DNA of 64,000 bases from Escherichia coli (GCF_024223415.1 NZ_CP100500.1); one strand, 5' to 3'; shown: positions 3,790 through 15,587, counted from the stretch's first letter. Translations and numbers: made by a program. Notes: generated from the sequence alone by a model not told the origin.

Positions 3790-4499
3790 AAATTGAATTA
3801 ACGGTGAATGGGCTGAACGTGCAAGCGCAGTACCATGATGAAGAGATAGAACGCGTGCATAAACCGTTGCTGCGTATGCTGGCGGCCTTACAGACGGTAA
3901 ATCCGCAGCGCCGAACCGTGGTTTTTCTTTGCGCTCCGCCGGGGACGGGGAAATCTACCCTAACCACCTTCTGGGAATACCTCGCGCAACAAGACCCGGA
4001 ACTGCCCGCTATTCAGACGCTGCCGATGGATGGTTTTCACCATTACAATAGCTGGCTGGATGCGCATCAATTGCGCCCCTTCAAAGGCGCACCAGATACA
4101 TTCGATGTGGCGAAACTGGCGGAAAATCTGCGCCAGGTAGTGGAAGGGGATTGTACGTGGCCGCAATACGATCGACAAAAGCATGATCCGGTTGAAGATG
4201 CGTTGCACGTTACCGCACCACTCGTCATCGTCGAAGGAAACTGGTTGTTGCTGGACGACGAGAAGTGGTGCCAGCTTGCGCAATTTTGTGATTTCTCGAT
4301 CTTTATCAACGCGCCAGCTACTGCGTTGCGGGAACGACTGGTAGGGCGCAAGCTGGCGGGAGGGGTATCGCTGGCAGATGCAGAAGCTTTTTATGACCGT
4401 ACCGACGGGCCGAATGTTCGCCGGGTGCTGGAAGAGAGTCTGCCTGCAAATTTGACTTTAATGATGACCGCTACGGGTGAATATCGTCTGGTGGATTAA
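3786..4499 (+). CDS. yggC: P-loop nucleoside/pantothenate-kinase-like protein
   Basis: 237-aa ORF with Walker A motif PPGTGKST; overlaps yggD stop. Confidence 0.85.
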   Translation: MKIELTVNGLNVQAQYHDEEIERVHKPLLRMLAALQTVNPQRRTVVFLCAPPGTGKSTLTTFWEYLAQQDPELPAIQTLPMDGFHHYNSWLDAHQLRPFKGAPDTFDVAKLAENLRQVVEGDCTWPQYDRQKHDPVEDALHVTAPLVIVEGNWLLLDDEKWCQLAQFCDFSIFINAPATALRERLVGRKLAGGVSLADAEAFYDRTDGPNVRRVLEESLPANLTLMMTATGEYRLVD

Positions 4500-5148
4500 C
4501 GTTCCTGATTAGACCATCTTCCAGTCGCACCACACGAGAGAAATGACGCCGGGTAAATGCGGCGTCATGACTGATTGCTACGACGCTCGTGCCTCGCTGG
4601 CGGCACTTCTCCAGCCAGCTTTCAAACACGCTCAACCAATTTTCGTCAAAATCCCGACTCGGCTCGTCCAGCAGCAATAGTGGCGGAGAGAGTGCTTCCA
4701 GGCAGGCGACGGCGACCATCCGTCGCTGCGCACTATGCAGATCCAACGGGTGCGCGTTGGCAGTGTCTGCTAACTGACAACATTGCAGGGCAGCATGGGT
4801 ACGTTGAGTGATTTCATCCGCCGGGCATTTTTGCAGTTTCAAACCAAATGCGATCTCGTCAGCGACGGTGCTGTGAAAAAGTTGGTTTTCCGCTTCCTGA
4901 AACAGTACGCCAATCTTTGCCGCGCGCTGGCGGTTTTTCAGGTTTTTCATCGCCTGTTGTTGCAGCATAACCGTACCGGCTGTGGGCGTAAGAAGACCTG
5001 CCATTACTCGTAACAGCGTCGATTTCCCTGCGCCATTGTCGCCGGTCAGCGCCAACCATTCACCTTGTTTGAGTTGCAGAGAAATGTCGCAAAGACAATC
5101 CGTTGCCGCGCCAGGCCAGCGATAAGATATCTGATTTAACGTTAACAT
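4471..5148 (-). CDS. ECF/ABC transporter ATPase, second subunit, degenerate signature motif
   Basis: Walker A GDNGAGKST, Walker B LLLLDEP, H-loop ISHD, but LHSAQRR in place of LSGGQ; ATG at 5148 lies 1 nt upstream of the stop of the preceding ATPase gene (ATGnTAA); 3' end overlaps yggC convergently. Confidence 0.7.
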   Translation of the reverse strand: MLTLNQISYRWPGAATDCLCDISLQLKQGEWLALTGDNGAGKSTLLRVMAGLLTPTAGTVMLQQQAMKNLKNRQRAAKIGVLFQEAENQLFHSTVADEIAFGLKLQKCPADEITQRTHAALQCCQLADTANAHPLDLHSAQRRMVAVACLEALSPPLLLLDEPSRDFDENWLSVFESWLEKCRQRGTSVVAISHDAAFTRRHFSRVVRLEDGLIRNVNPPDDIHP

Positions 5149-5825
5149 AGTGGCTGGAGCGCTCCGTTTTGCAATTGCCACGCTTGCTGGCAGTAGTTCA
5201 GGAAAGGTGTGCGATGACGTTCAAAAAGAATAATCAGCGAACCACGTTCAAACGCCCAGTGTTGTAAGCGCTGCAACAGCATTTCGCTGGCCTGCGGCGT
5301 CAGGCGGCTAAAGGCTTCATCAAGAATTAATAGCTTTGGCTGCATCGCGATGGCGCAGGCGATGACCACGCGCTGTGTCTCTCCACCGGAGAGTGTTGCC
5401 GGGTGACGATGGCGCAACGGCTGGCACTCGGTCAGAGTCAGGGCGGCATCAATCCGAGCCATAATCTCTGCTTCAGCAAGACACAGATTTTCTGGCCCAA
5501 AGGCAACTTCTTCTTCCACGCTAAAGGTACAGCCGGAGAGCTGCAAATAGGGCGATTGCTGGACGAGCTGGATGGTGGCGGATTGTTCATTAAGCGGGAG
5601 ATGCCCAATGGGCGTACCGAGGAGCGTCCCCGTGCCTGTTATCTCTCCTGGCAGAAAGTCCGGATACCAGCCCGCCATCAGCTGTGCCAGCGTACTTTTG
5701 CCACTGCCGTTGTCACCAAAGATGGCGACCATCCCCGGTTTGACATAGTGAAAGTCATAACAGAACGGAGGATGTGTTGAGTGTGTCGGGCAATAACGGA
5801 ACTGTTCTAACGTAACCATATCCAC
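5142..5825 (-). CDS. ECF/ABC transporter ATPase, first subunit
   Basis: Walker A GDNGSGKST, canonical signature LSGGETQR, Walker B LLILDEA. Confidence 0.75.
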   Translation of the reverse strand: MDMVTLEQFRYCPTHSTHPPFCYDFHYVKPGMVAIFGDNGSGKSTLAQLMAGWYPDFLPGEITGTGTLLGTPIGHLPLNEQSATIQLVQQSPYLQLSGCTFSVEEEVAFGPENLCLAEAEIMARIDAALTLTECQPLRHRHPATLSGGETQRVVIACAIAMQPKLLILDEAFSRLTPQASEMLLQRLQHWAFERGSLIILFERHRTPFLNYCQQAWQLQNGALQPLC

Positions 5826-6514
5826 GCTCCGAATTCTGTCAGCATCAGCAAGATCATGGTGTAACGCGCTACGCGTTGTAGGGTGCTATCGGCTGGTGCC
5901 CACAACGTTGTTCGTCGATTGTGGATCCGAAATGCCCGCATATCCAGCGCCGCACCACGGACAGCAAGATCGTTTAGCGCATTGTGTGTTAGCGGAATAA
6001 TTAACGCGGGCATCGCACGTAAACGCTGATACCAGCCCTCATCCAGCGGCACGCCGCGGGCACGCTGCGCTTCATGAATAATCGCTAATTGCCGTTTTAA
6101 CTGCTCAACGACCAATAACGGCCCGGCAAACAGATAAGCGACGCCTGGCGGCAGGCGAGAAGCAAACAGAGCGCGGATAAAACATTGCACGGGGACGTAC
6201 TGCATCCACAACTGTGAGGTTGAAACAATCGCCAGAATCCGCAACCAGAGCGTAATAGCATGCGTCCAACGCTCCGGCGAACGCGGCGTGCCGCTTAGCC
6301 ATTCTGTTAGCCAGCCACCGTGTACCAGCCACAGCCCGGCTCCCAGCGAGAACATCAGCCAGACGACATATTTTGCCCGCCGCCGCGTGGCCTTTAGCGC
6401 AATAAGGCAGAAAAAGGTCGCCGCGCTATAGATCGGCAAAATGGTCTGCGCGGGCAGGATAAGCGTGGTGCAGGCCGCCAATGCCCACAGTGTTAATGAG
6501 GTAAATGGATGCAT
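5807..6514 (-). CDS. ECF transporter transmembrane T component (CbiQ/EcfT-like)
   Basis: Hydrophobic 235-aa protein with Ala-Arg-Gly motif (EAQRARGVP); start ATG directly abuts stop of upstream S gene (TAAATG). Confidence 0.65.
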   Translation of the reverse strand: MHPFTSLTLWALAACTTLILPAQTILPIYSAATFFCLIALKATRRRAKYVVWLMFSLGAGLWLVHGGWLTEWLSGTPRSPERWTHAITLWLRILAIVSTSQLWMQYVPVQCFIRALFASRLPPGVAYLFAGPLLVVEQLKRQLAIIHEAQRARGVPLDEGWYQRLRAMPALIIPLTHNALNDLAVRGAALDMRAFRIHNRRTTLWAPADSTLQRVARYTMILLMLTEFGAWIWLR

Positions 6515-7093
6515 TTAGCGCACGGCAGCCATTGCCGGAAAATGGCGCGTGGTGCGAATCGGCAGCTGGCGCAGTAAAAGCCAGACAATCACCGCTGTAA
6601 GAGTTTTATCGACCAGGTTCGCGCCTATCACCGTAATCGCCACCGACTCCACCAGGTTTTGCCCCATCGAGTGCATCCAGGCAACGAACAAATCGGCTCC
6701 GCTACCGGTGACACCGCCGAACAGCGCAGTACGCAGCGGTACAGCGACGACCGTTACCGCAAGCGTAATAATCACGCCGCTGACAACGACTTTTGGCAGG
6801 GTGCGGAACCAACCCGCTCGCGCCAGCCAACCGGCGACCAGGCCGATGACCATCGCCACGGGCGCAAATGCGGCGGCGATCGGGTCGGTCAGCAATCCCC
6901 AGAGTAAATTGGTCAGTAAACCGGTCAGCATCCCGATCACCGGACCAAGCAGTACCGCGCTAATAAGTGTGCCGATGGAGTCGAGAAATATAGGTAATTT
7001 GACCATGCTGGCCAGTTGCCCGCCGATCATATTGATGGCGATAGATATAACGATTAACACCAGCGCCTGACTGGAAAAGTGGCTACGCGCCAT
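6515..7093 (-). CDS. small integral membrane protein, candidate ECF substrate-specific S component
   Basis: About 192 aa of mostly hydrophobic helices; preferred start ATG 7093 with GAGAGG Shine-Dalgarno upstream (track ORF extends to 7192); position immediately upstream of T and A genes. Confidence 0.55.
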   Translation of the reverse strand: MARSHFSSQALVLIVISIAINMIGGQLASMVKLPIFLDSIGTLISAVLLGPVIGMLTGLLTNLLWGLLTDPIAAAFAPVAMVIGLVAGWLARAGWFRTLPKVVVSGVIITLAVTVVAVPLRTALFGGVTGSGADLFVAWMHSMGQNLVESVAITVIGANLVDKTLTAVIVWLLLRQLPIRTTRHFPAMAAVR

Positions 7094-7115
7094 AAGAAAA
7101 CCTCTCTGAAAGTAG

Positions 7116-7547
7116 TTATTTAACGGGGGAAATATGCAACTCGTCGTAACCAGAAAGCGCGCAAGGTTGGCGGCTAAACGCCAGTTCCTCAAGGCTACCG
7201 ATCACCAGTTCAAGCGTGGTCCGCACGGTACAGCCGGGCATCATATGACCGCCAAGCATCGTGCCGTGTGGATCGGAAACGCAGAGATGAAGATGCTCAC
7301 CACTCTGTTCCAACGTGCCGTTTAGTGAGATCACTTCGAATGTACCGTTCAGGAGCGTGGTGCCTTCTTGCCCGGCATAGCGCAAGGCGATGTCAGTCAG
7401 GCTACCGGTACAGCCTGCAATCCAGGCGGCATGAAGTTGCTGCTGCTGTGCAAAAGCGTGTAGCTGGGAAAAAACTTCCTGCCCGGGGAGGAGGCGCAGT
7501 GCGTAAAAGCGTGCGGAGGAAGAATATGGGTAGGGCAATGTCATCAT
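7116..7547 (-). CDS. small soluble protein, possibly DUF296/PPC-domain family
   Basis: 143-aa ORF, first gene of the minus-strand operon; family assignment from memory of sequence character only. Confidence 0.45.
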   Translation of the reverse strand: MMTLPYPYSSSARFYALRLLPGQEVFSQLHAFAQQQQLHAAWIAGCTGSLTDIALRYAGQEGTTLLNGTFEVISLNGTLEQSGEHLHLCVSDPHGTMLGGHMMPGCTVRTTLELVIGSLEELAFSRQPCALSGYDELHISPVK

Positions 7548-7918
7548 TGGAGTACTCCGAAACTCGGACGTATTGCGGATAATATCGACGCTGCATCAGT
7601 CATATTCTGATATAAGTCAGGGTTTGTGACGGCACAACGAAAAGATTTTGCTACGCTTATTCGTGATTCTGCAAAGTGGAATAAATTCCACAGGGGCGGG
7701 GCTGAAAACGTGACGTAAGTCAGATAATTGTCTTCTTTGACTGGACAATCATTCCTTTTATTCCACGTTTCGCTTATCCTAGCTGAAGCGTTTCAGTCGA
7801 TTAAATGTTCGACAATTAACCAATCAGTCGCAGTTTGCGACAGGTAAGGTTTCCCCGGACGATTTGCTGGATTACTCTGTCTGGCAAATTTGCTCAGGGA
7901 AAACCTTGCAGGAGATCT

Positions 7919-8938
7919 ATGACCGTACGCGTAGCGATAAATGGCTTCGGTCGCATCGGGCGTAATGTGGTTCGTGCTTTGTATGAATCCGGACGCCGGG
8001 CGGAAATTACCGTGGTGGCAATCAACGAACTGGCGGATGCTGCGGGCATGGCGCATTTGTTGAAATATGACACCAGCCATGGCCGTTTTGCATGGGAAGT
8101 ACGACAGGAACGCGATCAACTTTTTGTTGGTGATGACGCCATCCGCGTATTGCATGAACGTTCACTGCAATCGCTCCCCTGGCGTGAACTTGGCGTTGAT
8201 GTAGTCCTCGACTGCACCGGCGTATATGGCTCCCGCGAGCATGGCGAAGCGCATATTGCCGCCGGGGCCAAAAAAGTGCTCTTTTCACATCCTGGCAGTA
8301 ACGATCTCGACGCGACCGTTGTTTACGGCGTCAATCAGGATCAACTTCGTGCGGAACACCGCATCGTTTCTAACGCTTCCTGTACCACGAATTGCATAAT
8401 TCCCGTCATCAAATTGTTAGATGATGCGTACGGTATTGAGTCCGGCACTGTGACCACAATTCACTCCGCCATGCACGATCAACAGGTTATTGATGCATAC
8501 CATCCTGACCTGCGTCGCACCCGGGCAGCCAGCCAGTCGATCATTCCGGTCGATACTAAACTGGCCGCCGGTATCACACGATTTTTTCCGCAATTTAACG
8601 ATCGCTTTGAAGCGATTGCGGTACGTGTGCCAACCATAAATGTGACGGCAATCGATTTAAGCGTGACGGTGAAGAAACCTGTAAAAGCCAATGAAGTCAA
8701 CCTGTTGCTGCAAAAAGCAGCACAAGGTGCATTTCATGGTATAGTTGACTATACGGAATTGCCGTTGGTCTCTGTAGATTTTAACCACGATCCGCACAGT
8801 GCCATTGTCGATGGCACCCAAACCCGGGTCAGTGGCGCACACCTGATCAAAACGTTGGTCTGGTGCGATAACGAATGGGGCTTTGCTAACCGAATGCTCG
8901 ACACGACGTTAGCTATGGCTACTGTTGCTTTCAGGTAA
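7919..8938 (+). CDS. epd: D-erythrose-4-phosphate dehydrogenase
   Basis: Starts [15 protein letters not shown] (GAPDH-family NAD-binding motif), 339 aa; AGGAG Shine-Dalgarno; upstream part of the track ORF rejected. Confidence 0.95.
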
Positions 8939-11803: not shown

Positions 11804-12679
<876 letters not shown>

Positions 12680-12688
12680 TCATGTGAA

Positions 12689-12711
12689 GCGCCCATGAAA
12701 TTCATGGGCGC
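12689..12711. terminator. hairpin gcgcccatg-aaatt-catgggcgc between convergent mscS and downstream gene
   Basis: Perfect 9-bp inverted repeat; no strong T tract on either side. Confidence 0.4.
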
Positions 12712-12720
12712 ACTACCAAT

Positions 12721-13764
12721 TTAACGCATTGTTTCATCAAGTATATTGGCAACTTTTTGCATGACTTCCCCGGCATTATCCACGCCTTCAGTTTTTTGCT
12801 GTTCTACCCACTGCGTTTGCTCTTGCTGATAACCAATCGCTTTCTGCCAGGCGTCCAGCTCTGATTTTTTCAAATAGCGAACCTGTGCACCTTCCTGCTC
12901 AAGCGTTTTTACCATGCTGATCAGGTTGTTATCTAATGCCTTGCCCAGCGCTTTCTCGGTTGTAATGGCCGCTCGTTGAATAGCCTCACGATCTCTGTTA
13001 TCAAGGTTTTCCCACGTTTGTTTATTCATTACCAACAGATAAACATGACCAAGCCAGAGCGAAGGGGAGAGCAACACATTCGGCGCAGCACGTTCAGCAT
13101 GGATGTCATATCCGCTATCAAGATTGACCATTAAGCCATCGAGTTGTCCGTCGCGGAGTGCTGTCGTAATTTGCTCATTCCACGGTAAGGTTACGGTTTT
13201 TGCCCCCGTATGAGTTAAATAAGCCCGGTGCCAGAAACTGGCTGTTCGCCAGGTGGTTCCCTGAAGTGCAGTCAATTTATCAATGGGCCTGGTAGAGAAA
13301 AAGCCTACCGGGTAGCCAAGGAAAAACTGTAAATTCACGATATTGTTACGCTCAAGTTCAGCGTTAAACTCGGGAATTTCCGCATATACGCGACGAAAGA
13401 ATTCTACCTGACTGGCTCCATGATCCGGGCCAATAGCAAAGCTCTTGAAGATTTGATGAAGCGGTAATTGTTTCGCTGTGTATTCCGGTACCACTATACC
13501 CATATCAGCTTTGCTACCATCACTTATTGTCGTCAGAGCGTCATAGCTGATGGCGGTTTCACCGTTCCAGTGTGGTTCGATTTTCAAACGCCCCTGCGAC
13601 TCTTTTTCAATTTCTGCAAAAAATATCTCTTTAATTATTTGTGTACGCATTCCCCCGTAGGGTTCATGGTCTGTATAACGAAGAATTTTTTCAGCGGCAA
13701 CGTTGTGGGAAGATATCAGAAGTAATCCTGATACCAGAGAAAGTAAAAAGTGTTTGAATGTCAT
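12721..13764 (-). CDS. secreted DctP-like (TRAP-type) solute-binding protein, orphan
   Basis: Signal-peptide-like N-terminus MTFKHFLLSLVSGLLLISSHNVAA when started at ATG 13764 (track ORF starts 13806); FFAEIEKESQGRLKIEPHWNG resembles the conserved N-terminal region of DctP-family binding proteins as I recall it; no permease genes adjacent. Confidence 0.55.
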   Translation of the reverse strand: MTFKHFLLSLVSGLLLISSHNVAAEKILRYTDHEPYGGMRTQIIKEIFFAEIEKESQGRLKIEPHWNGETAISYDALTTISDGSKADMGIVVPEYTAKQLPLHQIFKSFAIGPDHGASQVEFFRRVYAEIPEFNAELERNNIVNLQFFLGYPVGFFSTRPIDKLTALQGTTWRTASFWHRAYLTHTGAKTVTLPWNEQITTALRDGQLDGLMVNLDSGYDIHAERAAPNVLLSPSLWLGHVYLLVMNKQTWENLDNRDREAIQRAAITTEKALGKALDNNLISMVKTLEQEGAQVRYLKKSELDAWQKAIGYQQEQTQWVEQQKTEGVDNAGEVMQKVANILDETMR

Positions 13765-13818
13765 CTCAGTTCCATCTGTAATTTTATTGGTCGTCATTAA
13801 TATCAAAAACCGTGAACT

Positions 13819-14748
13819 TTAACAACTAAAATCGAACTTCATATTTTTAAAGTCCAGCCACGCATTGCCAGTACCAAAATTATACCCGCCGAAGTATTCT
13901 TCAAATTCAATATAAAAAGGTGACATTCCATCTGGTATAGATTGAAATGGAACCATTGAACCACCGAGATGATCGGGTTGATGTGCACTATGCCACTGGT
14001 GAGTTTCACATTTACTCTTTCCCTCTGCATCTTTAGAAAAATAACGAATGGACTGATATTCCGTATTATTTCTTTCTGTGGGGCTAATTCCCGCATTAGG
14101 ATCAAAAGCGCGCGGCTTACATGAAATCGCCAGATTGAAAGCCAGCGACTGCTCAGGAATGGTGCCCATTTTACGGTATACAAAATTGCTTTCAGGCGTA
14201 TCTTTTGGTCTGACGCTTGCCTGAAAATAACTAAACGCACTGCCGGTGGTCATCCATTCTGGTGTATCTTGCTGGTTGCGATAGTGATTAGGTATAAGTT
14301 CAGGCGGTTCACAAAATGGGCCGTTGAACTCTTGCTGGGTGAGTAAAATCACCGCATAAGAACAACCTAATATATCTTCCATCCGAAATAGCCGTGGATG
14401 TCGTTGCTTTTCTGCCAGCCAGAAAACATAAAGGTCTGGATCTTCGGGGGGGGTGCAGGACTCGAAACTCTCAAACACATCCAATATTTCTTCTGTACAT
14501 GGTGTTCTGCCATCGTTGTGCTCGGGCGCAACAGCAAAGAAAGATAACGCGACAATCTCTGGCCCATAAATCCGATAATCTTCTGGCAACAACAGGGTAA
14601 ATCCATGATTCAATGGGAAACCATTATTTGGATCCAGCGGCCACTGTTCGGGCGTTATGCCTGGCGGTAGGCCAAAGCACCAACCTTGTTGGCGCGGTAT
14701 ATTTTCGCGAATAGGATGGGGCAAGAGGGTAAGATCATAAGCATGCAT
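13819..14748 (-). CDS. hypothetical cytoplasmic protein, 309 aa, unknown function
   Basis: ATG at 14748 preceded by AAGGA Shine-Dalgarno; no signal peptide or transmembrane segment evident; hand-counted 60-nt stretches give roughly 37-40% GC versus about 50% in neighbouring genes. Confidence 0.6.
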   Translation of the reverse strand: MHAYDLTLLPHPIRENIPRQQGWCFGLPPGITPEQWPLDPNNGFPLNHGFTLLLPEDYRIYGPEIVALSFFAVAPEHNDGRTPCTEEILDVFESFESCTPPEDPDLYVFWLAEKQRHPRLFRMEDILGCSYAVILLTQQEFNGPFCEPPELIPNHYRNQQDTPEWMTTGSAFSYFQASVRPKDTPESNFVYRKMGTIPEQSLAFNLAISCKPRAFDPNAGISPTERNNTEYQSIRYFSKDAEGKSKCETHQWHSAHQPDHLGGSMVPFQSIPDGMSPFYIEFEEYFGGYNFGTGNAWLDFKNMKFDFSC

Positions 14749-14759
14749 TGTGTGAGTCC

Positions 14760-14951
14760 TTTATAAAGCGAGGCCGTAATGGCCGTAGCACGATTCCTGT
14801 GAGCGATATTGTTATCCAAAAAATAGCCACGCATCCTGACTGTTCGTTTTTTTATTAATATTATTAATATGCTATTAAAAATATCCATTTCCGCTAATGA
14901 TGCTCACACGCTATAGTCTGCAAATCAGATAATTAGCTCGGAATAAATTAC
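14760..14951 (+). promoter_or_regulatory. argO upstream control region (expected ArgP/Lrp-regulated promoter)
   Basis: AT-rich intergenic stretch upstream of the argO GTG start; individual sites not resolved. Confidence 0.4.
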
Positions 14952-15587
14952 GTGATTTCTTATTACTTTCAAGGTCTTGCACTTGGTGCTGCTATGATCC
15001 TACCGCTCGGTCCACAAAATGCTTTTGTGATGAATCAGGGCATTCGTCGTCAGTACCACATTATGATTGCCTTACTTTGCGCTATCAGCGATTTGGTCCT
15101 GATTTGCGCCGGGATTTTTGGTGGCAGCGCGTTATTGATGCAGTCGCCGTGGTTGCTGGCGCTGGTCACCTGGGGCGGCGTAGCCTTCTTGCTCTGGTAT
15201 GGTTTTGGCGCTTTTAAAACAGCGATGAGCAGTAATATTGAGTTAGCCAGTGCCGAAGTCCTGAAGCAAGGAAGATGGAAAATTATCGCCACCATGTTGG
15301 CAGTGACCTGGCTGAATCCGCATGTTTACCTGGATACTTTTGTTGTACTGGGCAGCCTTGGTGGGCAGCTTGACGTCGAACCAAAACGTTGGTTTGCGCT
15401 CGGGACAATTAGCGCCTCTTTCCTGTGGTTCTTTGGTCTGGCTATTCTCGCAGCCTGGCTGGCACCGCGCCTGCGCACGGCAAAATCACAGCGCATTATC
15501 AATCTGGTAGTGGGATGTGTCATGTGGTTTATAGCCTTGCAGCTGGCGAGAGACGGTATTGCTCATGCACAAGCCTTGTTCAGTTAG
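14952..15587 (+). CDS. argO: arginine exporter, LysE family
   Basis: GTG start, 211 aa, [26 protein letters not shown]. Confidence 0.9.

What the first reader, a model, noticed from the sequence alone, without database searches (positions are those of the whole stretch)
12721..13764. Orphan DctP-like solute-binding protein without TRAP permease partners
The mature N-terminal region (EKILRYTDHEPYGGMRTQIIKEIFFAEIEKESQGRLKIEPHWNG) resembles the conserved beginning of DctP-family TRAP binding proteins as I remember them. Neither small nor large TRAP membrane subunits (DctQ/DctM) are encoded in the window. Orphan binding proteins can serve as ligand sensors for chemoreceptors or kinases, or as partners of other proteins.
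Basis: partly seen in the sequence, partly recalled or inferred. Interest (0 to 1): 0.55.

Follow-up and report, generated by a model that had tools for sequence, protein, structure and literature searches.

The report
Binding protein that lost its transporter
This rare E. coli gene encodes a secreted binding protein of the TRAP-transporter (DctP) family, from a branch that is not found next to the usual membrane transporter genes in any of 82 surveyed loci, so it probably does a transporter-independent job that nobody has yet tested.

Summary
Window 12721-13764 (-) encodes a 347-aa secreted DctP-family protein (Pfam PF03480, E 9e-20; AlphaFold model matches solved TRAP binding proteins, TM 0.74-0.79). 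No DctQ/DctM gene lies in the 64-kb window.

The lack of a permease partner is a property of the whole clade. In 82 loci carrying clade members (43-96% identity; Enterobacterales, Alphaproteobacteria, Synergistaceae, Bacteroidia), none has dctQM in an operon with it. The nearest out-group relatives (26-33% identity) have DctQ-DctM directly downstream in 7 of 7 places.

In 23 Enterobacteriaceae loci the gene occupies the same site, divergent from argO and convergent with mscS. It is therefore an old resident, kept intact in only 37 of 5426 complete E. coli genomes, under purifying selection (dN/dS about 0.15). 31 of those 37 genomes also lack yiaMN, the only TRAP permease I know of in E. coli K-12.

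The carboxylate-binding Arg is retained. Elsewhere the domain is fused to periplasmic hydrolases, or sits beside a TonB-dependent receptor, a two-component system or single regulators.

The upstream 309-aa gene is an unrelated cytoplasmic YwqG-fold protein, present only in the E. coli loci.

Verdict: a real, probably TRAP-permease-independent variant of a known family. Ligand and partner are unknown. Interest is moderate.

The parts
12721..13764 (-). CDS of the orphan DctP-clade periplasmic binding protein (347 aa; RefSeq WP_000142899.1)
   Evidence: ORF list and RefSeq CDS with the same coordinates. Pfam PF03480 E 8.9e-20. AlphaFold model pLDDT 91.7 with a long helix at residues 256-290. Foldseek matches to TRAP binding proteins with TM 0.74-0.79. 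dN/dS 0.13-0.17 against Escherichia orthologs.
13693..13764 (-). Signal peptide, residues 1-24 (MTFKHFLLSLVSGLLLISSHNVAA, cleavage before EKIL). There is no lipobox cysteine.
   Evidence: Read directly from the translation. This stretch is hydrophobic and variable across 20 homologs, while conservation starts at LRYTDHEP. Low pLDDT at residues 1-20. No signal-peptide predictor was available.
13246..13248 (-). Codon of Arg173 (motif GTTWRTASFWH), the counterpart of the carboxylate-binding arginine of TRAP binding proteins
   Evidence: Invariant in the 20-sequence clade alignment. It aligns with the Arg of the corresponding G-x-x-x-R motif in 4NAP/4PGN, 2PFZ, 4N6D and 7NRR. The ligand-binding role of this Arg (SiaP R147) comes from my own knowledge of the family.
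13819..14748 (-). Upstream co-directional gene: 309-aa cytoplasmic YwqG/DUF1963-fold (TYPP superfamily) protein, WP_071337506.1. It was inserted in the E. coli lineage and is not a conserved partner.
12689..12711 (.). Perfect GC-rich inverted repeat (GCGCCCATGAA-A-TTCATGGGCGC) in the 41-nt gap between the convergent mscS and binding-protein stop codons. It may be a shared transcription-termination hairpin.
   Evidence: Sequence read. The consensus terminator scan did not call it, because there is no T-run, so this function is inferred only.
12649..14870 (.). Approximate extent of the DNA absent from E. coli K-12 (about 2.2 kb). The left edge lies inside the last ~30 nt of mscS and the right edge about 80-115 nt upstream of argO.
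   Evidence: Alignments of the window with the 138-bp K-12 mscS-argO spacer. There are no flanking repeats, integrase or IS element. The full two-gene stretch is present in 37 of 5426 complete E. coli genomes.
14749..14951 (.). Divergent regulatory region between the 309-aa gene and argO. In most of the other syntenic genera the binding-protein gene itself faces argO directly across 107-299 nt.
   Evidence: Gene maps of 23 syntenic loci. One promoter-like match on the minus strand at 14887-14860, but promoter-like matches are at chance level in this region. The best Fur-box match is 12 of 19, which is background.

Best explanation
The gene encodes a secreted, stand-alone ligand-binding protein with the two-lobed Venus-flytrap fold of DctP-type TRAP binding proteins. 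It belongs to a tight clade that has separated from the DctQM membrane permease.

Shown:
- The fold and family assignment.
- The signal peptide (by eye).
- Retention of the family's carboxylate-binding arginine (Arg173).
- Purifying selection.
- Absence of dctQM beside the gene throughout the clade, while the nearest out-group relatives keep dctQM.

Inferred:
- In the periplasm the protein closes around a small organic-acid-type ligand.
- The liganded form then acts through something other than a TRAP permease. Depending on lineage this could be a membrane signal transducer, an unrelated transporter, or an attached or neighbouring periplasmic hydrolase whose carboxylate product or substrate it holds.

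In E. coli it is a relict accessory gene of the ancestral Enterobacteriaceae argO/mscS locus, kept by about 1% of sequenced strains. Its ligand and its downstream partner are unknown. The adjacent 309-aa YwqG-like gene is a later, unrelated insertion.
For: Family and fold.

Arg173 conserved and aligned with the Arg of solved TRAP binding proteins.

Clade definition: exhaustive phmmer gives only 43 cluster representatives at E<=1e-30. There are clade-specific invariant motifs (YTDHEP, VPEY, LPLHQIFKSF, WRTASFWH, NLDSGY, LWLGH).

Orphan state:
- 82 loci surveyed, 61 of them with at least 3 kb on both sides.
- DctM/DctQ-like ORFs within 10 kb in only 3 loci. Each of those comes with its own YiaO-like binding protein, and none is co-oriented with or adjacent to the clade gene as an operon.
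- Precomputed Pfam contexts agree.
- Positive control: the same YiaN query finds DctM in 7 of 7 out-group loci. Those out-group proteins (26-33% identity) have DctQ and DctM directly downstream.

E. coli: 31 of the 37 genomes with the intact islet, including the one 99.9% identical to the window, have no megablast match to yiaMN.

The gene is functional: dN/dS 0.13-0.17. It stays intact in O145:H28 strains in which the neighbouring gene is cut by an IS3 element.

Use as a free-standing module:
- Fusions to a carboxylesterase (Pfam E 4e-120), an alpha/beta-hydrolase-like domain, and a metallo-beta-lactamase-fold domain in several independent assemblies.
- An EnvZ/OmpR-like two-component pair adjacent in 5 loci.
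- A TonB-dependent receptor directly upstream in 8 Rahnella loci.

Precedent: a TAXI-type TRAP binding protein works with a non-TRAP transporter, GltS (PMC12344293).
Against: - No ligand, partner or phenotype is known. Everything downstream of 'binds a ligand' is inference.
- Whole genomes could not be scanned at the protein level. A divergent DctM gene elsewhere in the yiaMN-negative E. coli strains, or in the other species, is therefore not excluded.
- In Enterobacillus tribolii (L056) a complete TRAP operon lies about 490 nt away on the opposite strand, so sharing a permease is conceivable there.
- The neighbourhoods are heterogeneous, so no single non-TRAP partner is supported.
- Retention of the Arg shows only that carboxylate binding is plausible.
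- Many loci come from metagenome-assembled genomes with short flanks: 21 of 82 have less than 3 kb on one side.
Confidence: 0.55

Rival explanations
1. It is an ordinary TRAP binding protein whose DctQM permease is encoded elsewhere in the genome. It would be an extra binding protein that widens the substrate range of a shared permease such as YiaMN.
For: It has the full TRAP binding-protein fold and the conserved Arg. 6 of the 37 islet-bearing E. coli genomes do carry yiaMN. In L056 a complete TRAP operon lies next to the gene. Orphan binding proteins that presumably share permeases are accepted in the TTT and TRAP literature (PMC5812351; PMC12344293).
Against: 31 of the 37 islet-bearing E. 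coli genomes have no yiaMN. There is no dctQM operon link in any of 82 loci across several phyla, whereas the out-group is linked in 7 of 7 places. The protein has no BLAST-level similarity to YiaO. N-terminal fusions of 200-670 residues to enzymes are hard to reconcile with docking on a permease.
Confidence: 0.15
2. It is specifically a periplasmic co-receptor for signalling. The liganded protein would dock on a sensor kinase or chemoreceptor and switch gene expression or taxis, as other binding proteins such as LuxP, TorT and ChvE are known to do.
For: An EnvZ-like kinase and an OmpR-like regulator are adjacent in 5 loci (Pantoea, Tritonibacter, Albibacillus, a Hyphomicrobiales plasmid, a Rhodospirillaceae MAG). 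The gene often lies next to a single regulator (TetR, AraC, LysR or MarR type) and no transporter. Binding-protein-mediated signalling is reviewed in PMC8050422. The LuxP, TorT and ChvE examples come from my own knowledge.
Against: Only 5 of 82 loci have the two-component pair. No kinase or chemoreceptor is adjacent in E. coli or in the other 22 argO/mscS loci. The passages I retrieved from that review list DctP-type proteins (SiaP, TarP) only in a table of transporter binding proteins, not as a signalling case. The enzyme fusions point elsewhere.
Confidence: 0.12
3. The two genes of the E. coli islet, the YwqG-like protein and the binding protein, form one functional module.
For: They are co-directional and 54 nt apart, with a plausible ribosome-binding site before each and no terminator called between them. 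They co-occur in all 37 intact-islet genomes, and possibly on one 2580-nt metagenomic contig.
Against: The 309-aa protein has no signal peptide, so the two products would be in different compartments. It is absent from 21 of the 23 syntenic loci and from every non-syntenic locus. Its homologs in Pseudomonas and elsewhere have no binding protein nearby. In O145:H28 it is disrupted by IS3 while the binding-protein gene stays intact.
Confidence: 0.05
4. It is a periplasmic shuttle for a metal, haem or metallophore-type ligand brought in by a TonB-dependent outer-membrane receptor.
For: In 8 Rahnella loci a TonB-dependent hemoglobin/transferrin/lactoferrin-family receptor (TIGR01786, 313 bits, just under the cutoff of 324) lies directly upstream on the same strand. 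In Citrobacter an ABC system with its own binding protein and a fused double permease follows the gene; its resemblance to Fe3+ importers is my own reading. Many His, Tyr, Asp and Glu residues are invariant in the clade.
Against: There is no Fur-box-like sequence above background near the E. coli genes. The Citrobacter ABC system has its own binding protein. No receptor is adjacent in 74 of 82 loci. The conserved Arg argues for a carboxylate ligand, not a bare metal.
Confidence: 0.06
5. It is a decaying remnant with no current function in E. coli.
For: It has been lost from about 99% of complete E. coli genomes. It is split into two ORFs in Escherichia sp. MOD1-EC7003 (L014).
Against: The reading frame is intact in all 37 full-islet genomes and in about 20 O145 genomes, with 98.6-99.9% identity. 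dN/dS is 0.13-0.17. The signal peptide and all clade-invariant residues are retained.
Confidence: 0.05

Closest known systems
DctP-type TRAP substrate-binding proteins (Pfam PF03480), for example TarP (7NR2/7NRA), Desulfovibrio alaskensis Dde_0634 (4NAP/4PGN), Bordetella DctP6/DctP7 (2PFZ/2PFY) and SiaP
   Same: Secreted protein of about 320 mature residues. Two alpha/beta lobes with a long helix at residues 256-290. Conserved Arg on the strand after the G-x-x-x-R motif. Foldseek TM 0.74-0.79 and E about 1e-20.
   Different: Only 15-21% identical to any solved member, and none is clearly closest. It carries its own invariant motifs (YTDHEP, LPLHQIFKSF, ASFWH, LWLGH). It is never in an operon with dctQM in the 82 surveyed loci, and in some lineages it is fused to enzymes. 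The literature describes DctP-type proteins as mostly operonic with their permease and composed only of the two lobes (PMC12344293).
Canonical out-group DctPQM systems at 26-33% identity (P0257, P0265, P0269)
   Same: They share part of the N-terminal signature (YSD(S/H)DPPG..RT) and score 199-257 bits against the clade profile.
   Different: They have DctQ and DctM immediately downstream in 7 of 7 places, together with catabolic genes.
Orphan binding proteins of the TTT family (Bordetella Bug proteins; AdpC of Rhodopseudomonas palustris)
   Same: Periplasmic binding proteins of a secondary-transporter family, encoded without membrane components nearby (PMC5812351).
   Different: They belong to a different protein family (TctC, PF03401). 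Those orphans are massively expanded paralogs thought to share a few TctAB permeases. Here there is a single-copy, deeply conserved ortholog, in strains that mostly lack the only TRAP permease I know of in the species.
TAXI-GltS system of Bordetella pertussis (BP0403)
   Same: A TRAP-type binding protein that has left the TRAP permease and works with a different membrane protein (PMC12344293).
   Different: It is TAXI-type, not DctP-type. It has an extra domain, and its new partner (GltS) is encoded alongside. Here no membrane partner is encoded nearby.
E. coli YiaO (binding protein of the YiaMNO 2,3-diketo-L-gulonate TRAP transporter)
   Same: The other DctP-family protein of E. coli.
   Different: There is no detectable pairwise similarity (BLASTP E 2.5). 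yiaO lies in an operon with yiaMN. yiaMN is absent from 31 of the 37 genomes that carry the intact islet.

Membership tests
DctP-type TRAP substrate-binding protein family (Pfam PF03480 / NCBIfam NF037995) | Significant match to the family sequence profile | tested here: met
   PF03480 E 8.9e-20, 71.6 bits. NF037995 61.4 bits, above its cutoff of 50. The stricter TIGR00787 model gives only 20 bits against a cutoff of 175.
DctP-type TRAP substrate-binding protein family (Pfam PF03480 / NCBIfam NF037995) | Two-lobed Venus-flytrap fold with a long helix spanning both lobes | tested here: met
   AlphaFold pLDDT 91.7, with a helix at residues 256-290. Foldseek top 50 PDB matches are all periplasmic solute-binding proteins, nearly all named TRAP/DctP, with TM 0.64-0.79. 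That this helix is a family hallmark comes from my own knowledge.
DctP-type TRAP substrate-binding protein family (Pfam PF03480 / NCBIfam NF037995) | Export to the periplasm (signal peptide) | tested here: met
   An N-terminal positively charged, hydrophobic and A-x-A-like segment, read by eye. The segment is variable across homologs. No predictor was available.
DctP-type TRAP substrate-binding protein family (Pfam PF03480 / NCBIfam NF037995) | Conserved arginine that binds the ligand carboxylate (SiaP R147 equivalent) | tested here: met
   Arg173 is invariant in the clade. It aligns with the motif Arg of 4PGN, 2PFZ, 4N6D and 7NRR. Its functional role is assumed from knowledge of the family.
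Functional TRAP transporter (DctPQM tripartite system) | Binding-protein gene encoded with DctQ and DctM membrane subunits (operon or neighbourhood) | tested here: not met
   None in the window. None in an operon arrangement in 82 clade loci, while the control detects DctM in 7 of 7 out-group loci.
Functional TRAP transporter (DctPQM tripartite system) | A DctQM permease somewhere in the same genome | tested here: inconclusive
   31 of 37 islet-bearing E. coli genomes have no megablast match to yiaMN. A protein-level scan of whole genomes for other DctM genes was not possible.
Functional TRAP transporter (DctPQM tripartite system) | Binding-protein-dependent, Na+-coupled uptake of the ligand | not testable with these tools
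   This needs transport assays or reconstitution.
C4-dicarboxylate-binding DctP (the RefSeq product name) | Orthology to, or ligand specificity of, C4-dicarboxylate DctP proteins | tested here: not met
   No close relationship to any characterised binding protein. The best PDB matches (15-21% identity) bind aromatic acids, pyroglutamate or sialic acid. The name is a generic transfer. The ligand itself was not tested.
TYPP / YwqG (DUF1963) superfamily (for the 309-aa neighbour) | YwqG-like duplicated all-beta fold | tested here: met
TYPP / YwqG (DUF1963) superfamily (for the 309-aa neighbour) | GGxP-like motif and conserved Q (Burroughs and Aravind 2014, PMC4275035) | tested here: inconclusive
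   The family has invariant H260, G262 and G263 and near-invariant P267 and Q269 (HLGGSMVPFQ). The spacing differs from GGxP. The Pfam DUF1963 profile does not match even at E<=10.

The most novel reading that the evidence does not exclude
This clade may be the first DctP-type binding-protein lineage that works entirely without a TRAP permease. It would be a periplasmic carboxylate-recognition module re-used as a free-standing receptor in Enterobacteriaceae, wired to a two-component system in Rhodobacterales and Pantoea, placed behind a TonB-dependent receptor in Rahnella, and welded onto secreted esterases and other hydrolases in Synergistaceae. That would parallel the recent TAXI-GltS discovery, but with no transporter at all.
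Probability: 0.4. Interest if true: 0.65.

Novelty: new variant of a known kind. Interest (0 to 1): 0.45.

Why it matters
TRAP binding proteins are normally read as markers of a transporter and are named accordingly. Here RefSeq calls the protein a 'C4-dicarboxylate TRAP transporter substrate-binding protein'.

A whole clade that is conserved and under selection, yet not linked to the permease in any surveyed locus, has three consequences:
- The annotation is misleading for hundreds of genomes.
- It offers a clean system for asking what a DctP-fold protein does when it is not feeding a transporter.
- It supplies natural enzyme-binding-domain fusions that could reveal the ligand class.

For E. 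coli biology it marks a small, old, strain-variable locus next to argO and mscS. That locus distinguishes about 1% of strains, including O145:H28 STEC and O78 isolates. The practical impact is modest until a ligand is found.

Tried and rejected
1. The 309-aa upstream gene as a functional partner. Rejected on its distribution, its cytoplasmic location and the IS3 disruption in O145 strains.

2. ABC transporters as new partners. L090 has an RbsA/RbsC-like pair directly downstream, L045 has a complete ABC system downstream, and Hafnia has araFGH upstream. Each system has its own conventional binding protein, so there is no support.

3. The N-terminal ~125-aa 'LISGAT' repeats of the Synergistaceae fusions as FMN-binding (flavinylation) domains. 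Pfam, NCBIfam and the PDB sequence search gave no match, so this is unconfirmed.

4. Iron regulation. The best Fur-box consensus match near the islet is 12 of 19, which is background.

5. Promoter and terminator scans of 12550-15050 were at or below chance and uninformative.

6. The islet as a mobile element. There are no repeats, integrase or IS at its edges in the window. Allele diversity of 98.6-99.9%, and the same site being used in 23 loci across many genera, argue for ancestry and loss rather than recent import.

7. Defence-system and phage libraries gave no hit for either protein.

9. Ligand inference from the nearest structures was not attempted beyond 'carboxylate likely', because identity is only 15-21%.

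Full report
**Observation**

The window is E. coli chromosome, with the gene order epd-pgk-fbaA-mscS-[two extra genes]-argO-yggE-srsR-scpCBA.

The ORF at 12721-13764 on the minus strand is 347 codons. Its extent is identical to RefSeq CDS WP_000142899.1 in a genome 99.9% identical over this region. Its translation starts with a Sec-type signal peptide, MTFKHFLLSLVSGLLLISSHNVAA.

It matches Pfam DctP PF03480 at E 8.9e-20. It also matches NCBIfam NF037995 above that model's cutoff, but falls far below the cutoff of the stricter TIGR00787 model. It is therefore a real but divergent family member.

An AlphaFold model built from 20 homologs is confident (pLDDT 91.7) and includes a long helix at residues 256-290. 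It superposes on solved TRAP binding proteins with TM 0.74-0.79 at only 15-21% identity. No single structure stands out as closest.

The arginine of the G-x-x-x-R motif (Arg173) is invariant in the clade. From my knowledge of the family, the equivalent residue holds the ligand carboxylate (SiaP R147). Arg173 aligns with that Arg in 4PGN, 2PFZ, 4N6D and 7NRR.

No DctQ or DctM is encoded in the 64 kb. tblastn with YiaM and YiaN gives nothing better than E 0.2. The RefSeq annotation of the matching stretch, which I assumed to be collinear with the window, lists none.

**The orphan state belongs to the whole clade**

An exhaustive phmmer search of 1.84 billion cluster representatives found only 43 at E<=1e-30. 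Three full-length representatives have 43-53% identity. A second tier follows at 26-33%.

With a clade alignment I fetched 80 loci from one-genome-per-species contigs and added two found earlier. Of these 82 loci, 61 have at least 3 kb on both sides and 51 have at least 8 kb.

A YiaN/YiaM search and an iterated DctM profile found TRAP membrane genes within 10 kb in only three loci (L056, L063, L071). In each case they come with their own YiaO-like binding protein, and none is arranged as an operon with the clade gene. Precomputed Pfam labels for five further contexts agree.

The control is clean. The second-tier relatives P0257, P0265 and P0269 have DctQ and DctM immediately downstream in 7 of 7 places. 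My YiaN query recovers all seven DctM genes at E<=4e-37.

The link to the permease was therefore lost at the base of this clade. It was not lost locally in E. coli.

**History in Enterobacteriaceae and E. coli**

In 23 loci the gene sits at the same place. These include Escherichia, Superficieibacter, Huaxiibacter, Citrobacter, Silvania, Lelliottia, Kluyvera, Klebsiella spallanzanii and Yokenella. In most of them it is divergent from argO across 107-299 nt and convergent with mscS across about 41-54 nt.

K-12 has only a 138-bp spacer there. The extra DNA in the window runs from inside the last ~30 nt of mscS, which changes the MscS C-terminus, to about 80-115 nt upstream of argO. It has no mobile-element signature.

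Only 37 of 5426 complete E. coli genomes carry the intact two-gene stretch. About 20 O145:H28 genomes carry it with the upstream gene cut by an IS3 and an integrase-bearing insertion, and the binding-protein gene is intact in them.

Alleles differ by up to 1.4% within E. coli. dN/dS against other Escherichia orthologs is 0.13-0.17. This is the pattern of an old gene under purifying selection that most lineages have deleted.

A chimeric islet+yiaMN query showed that 31 of the 37 intact-islet genomes have no match to yiaMN. That includes the genome nearest to the window. Across all genomes 4430 of 5426 have yiaMN. Other DctM genes in those strains could not be excluded, because no protein-level search of whole genomes was available.

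**The neighbour**

The 309-aa gene at 13819-14748 has no signal peptide. It has no hit in Pfam, NCBIfam, PADLOC or PHROGs.

Among the surveyed loci it occurs only in the window and L012. Its homologs in Pseudomonas and elsewhere stand alone. It is a separate insertion between argO and the binding-protein gene, not a partner.

**Clues to function**

Contexts outside the argO/mscS site are varied:
- 8 Rahnella loci: a TonB-dependent hemoglobin/transferrin/lactoferrin-family receptor directly upstream on the same strand.
- 5 loci from Pantoea, Rhodobacterales and relatives: an EnvZ/OmpR-like kinase and regulator adjacent.
- Other loci: a single TetR-, AraC-, LysR- or MarR-type regulator adjacent.
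- One Synergistaceae locus: the gene follows dapA-dapB-dapD.

In Synergistaceae and another low-GC lineage the domain is the C-terminal part of larger secreted proteins, seen in several independent assemblies:
- A type-B carboxylesterase (Pfam E 4e-120).
- An alpha/beta-hydrolase-like domain (not profile-checked).
- A metallo-beta-lactamase-fold domain with a copper-amine-oxidase N-terminal domain.
- Two copies of an unassigned ~125-aa repeat.

CocE/NonD hydrolase, S9 peptidase-like, aldo-keto reductase and nitroreductase-like genes lie around these fusions.

The literature describes DctP-type proteins as consisting only of the two lobes and as overwhelmingly operonic with their permease, with some orphans acknowledged (PMC12344293). 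It also gives a precedent for a TRAP-type (TAXI) binding protein that adopted a non-TRAP partner.

**Mechanism**

I commit to the following reading. The protein is a periplasmic, carboxylate-recognising Venus-flytrap protein that acts without a TRAP permease. Its output differs by lineage: signalling, hand-off to an unrelated transporter, or substrate or product capture beside a hydrolase.

The family, fold, conserved Arg, selection and absence of linked dctQM are shown. Ligand binding and the nature of the downstream step are inferred. My confidence is about 0.55.

The main rival is a shared permease encoded elsewhere. It is weakened by the yiaMN result and by the clade-wide pattern, but it is not excluded.

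**Comparison and novelty**

By sequence, fold and conserved Arg the protein is a member of the DctP family. It fails the genomic criterion for being part of a TRAP transporter.

Orphan binding proteins are a known phenomenon, best documented for the TTT family (PMC5812351). In the literature I searched I found no description of a coherent, deeply conserved DctP clade that is systematically orphan and is recruited into enzyme fusions.

I rate it a new variant of a known kind, of moderate interest. The RefSeq name 'C4-dicarboxylate' has no specific support.

Noticed in passing
window 12649-12679 (3' end of mscS, 11804-12679 +): The boundary of the extra DNA lies inside mscS. MscS here is 291 aa and ends ...[14 protein letters not shown], whereas the K-12 protein is 286 aa. 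The 291-aa form (WP_000389820.1) is also annotated in the O78 and O145 genomes, and Yokenella MscS is also 291 aa.
   Followed up: partly
L078:11342-12115 (+); N-termini of L061:1615-3375, L088:6103-7815 and L076:7883-10936; P0243: A secreted ~125-aa domain, usually in two tandem copies, each ending in NPDL(I/L)SGAT. It occurs alone or fused in front of the DctP-clade domain in Synergistaceae. The motif resembles the flavinylation site of FMN-binding domains, but Pfam, NCBIfam and the PDB sequence search gave no match.
   Followed up: partly
window 13819-14748 (-); relatives P0135, P0141, P0147 and others: The 309-aa YwqG-fold family is widespread in Proteobacteria (399 hits) and is not covered by any Pfam model. 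About a quarter of the listed relatives are ~470 aa and carry an extra DUF7256 (PF23917) domain. One relative (P0152, Bordetella) has an N-terminal extension that looks like a Tat signal.
   Followed up: partly
L099 (NZ_CP028379.1, E. coli O145 RM9872), locus 4599-8794: In about 20 O145:H28-type genomes the 309-aa gene is truncated to 234 aa by an IS3-family element. This is followed by a tyrosine recombinase and a DEAD/DEAH helicase, so another island has landed in this spot.
   Followed up: partly
E. coli genome collection: yiaMN is missing from about 18% of complete E. coli genomes, and 560 genomes match it at only 60-80% identity. It is strongly under-represented among islet carriers (6 of 37, against 82% overall). 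This is probably a phylogenetic effect, but it was not examined.
   Followed up: no
window about 4000-7550 (ORFs 5807-6514, 6515-7192, 7116-7547, all on the minus strand): An ECF-type transporter cluster (S component, T component, two ATPases) and a PPC-domain protein lie between epd and the yggC-like kinase gene, as annotated in NZ_CP084096.1. The corresponding Yokenella region lacks them, so this may be a second accessory islet in the window.
   Followed up: no
L014:10001-10978 (Escherichia sp. MOD1-EC7003): The ortholog is split into two ORFs (177 and 136 aa). It is apparently a pseudogene in this lineage.
   Followed up: no
L013 ('Collinsella sp.' MAG), L022 ('Chryseobacterium sp. 18061'), P0062 and P0122 ('Acinetobacter sp.' MAG): Contigs carrying Escherichia- or Citrobacter-like versions of this locus (60-96% identity, with the argO/mscS flanks in L022) are filed under unrelated taxa. 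Mis-binning or contamination of those assemblies is likely.
   Followed up: no
L067:2059-5480: In one Synergistaceae MAG the clade gene follows dapA-dapB-dapD (acetyltransferase type) with a 3-nt gap. Together with the argO neighbourhood in Enterobacteriaceae, this is a faint hint of a link to lysine/arginine-related metabolites.
   Followed up: no
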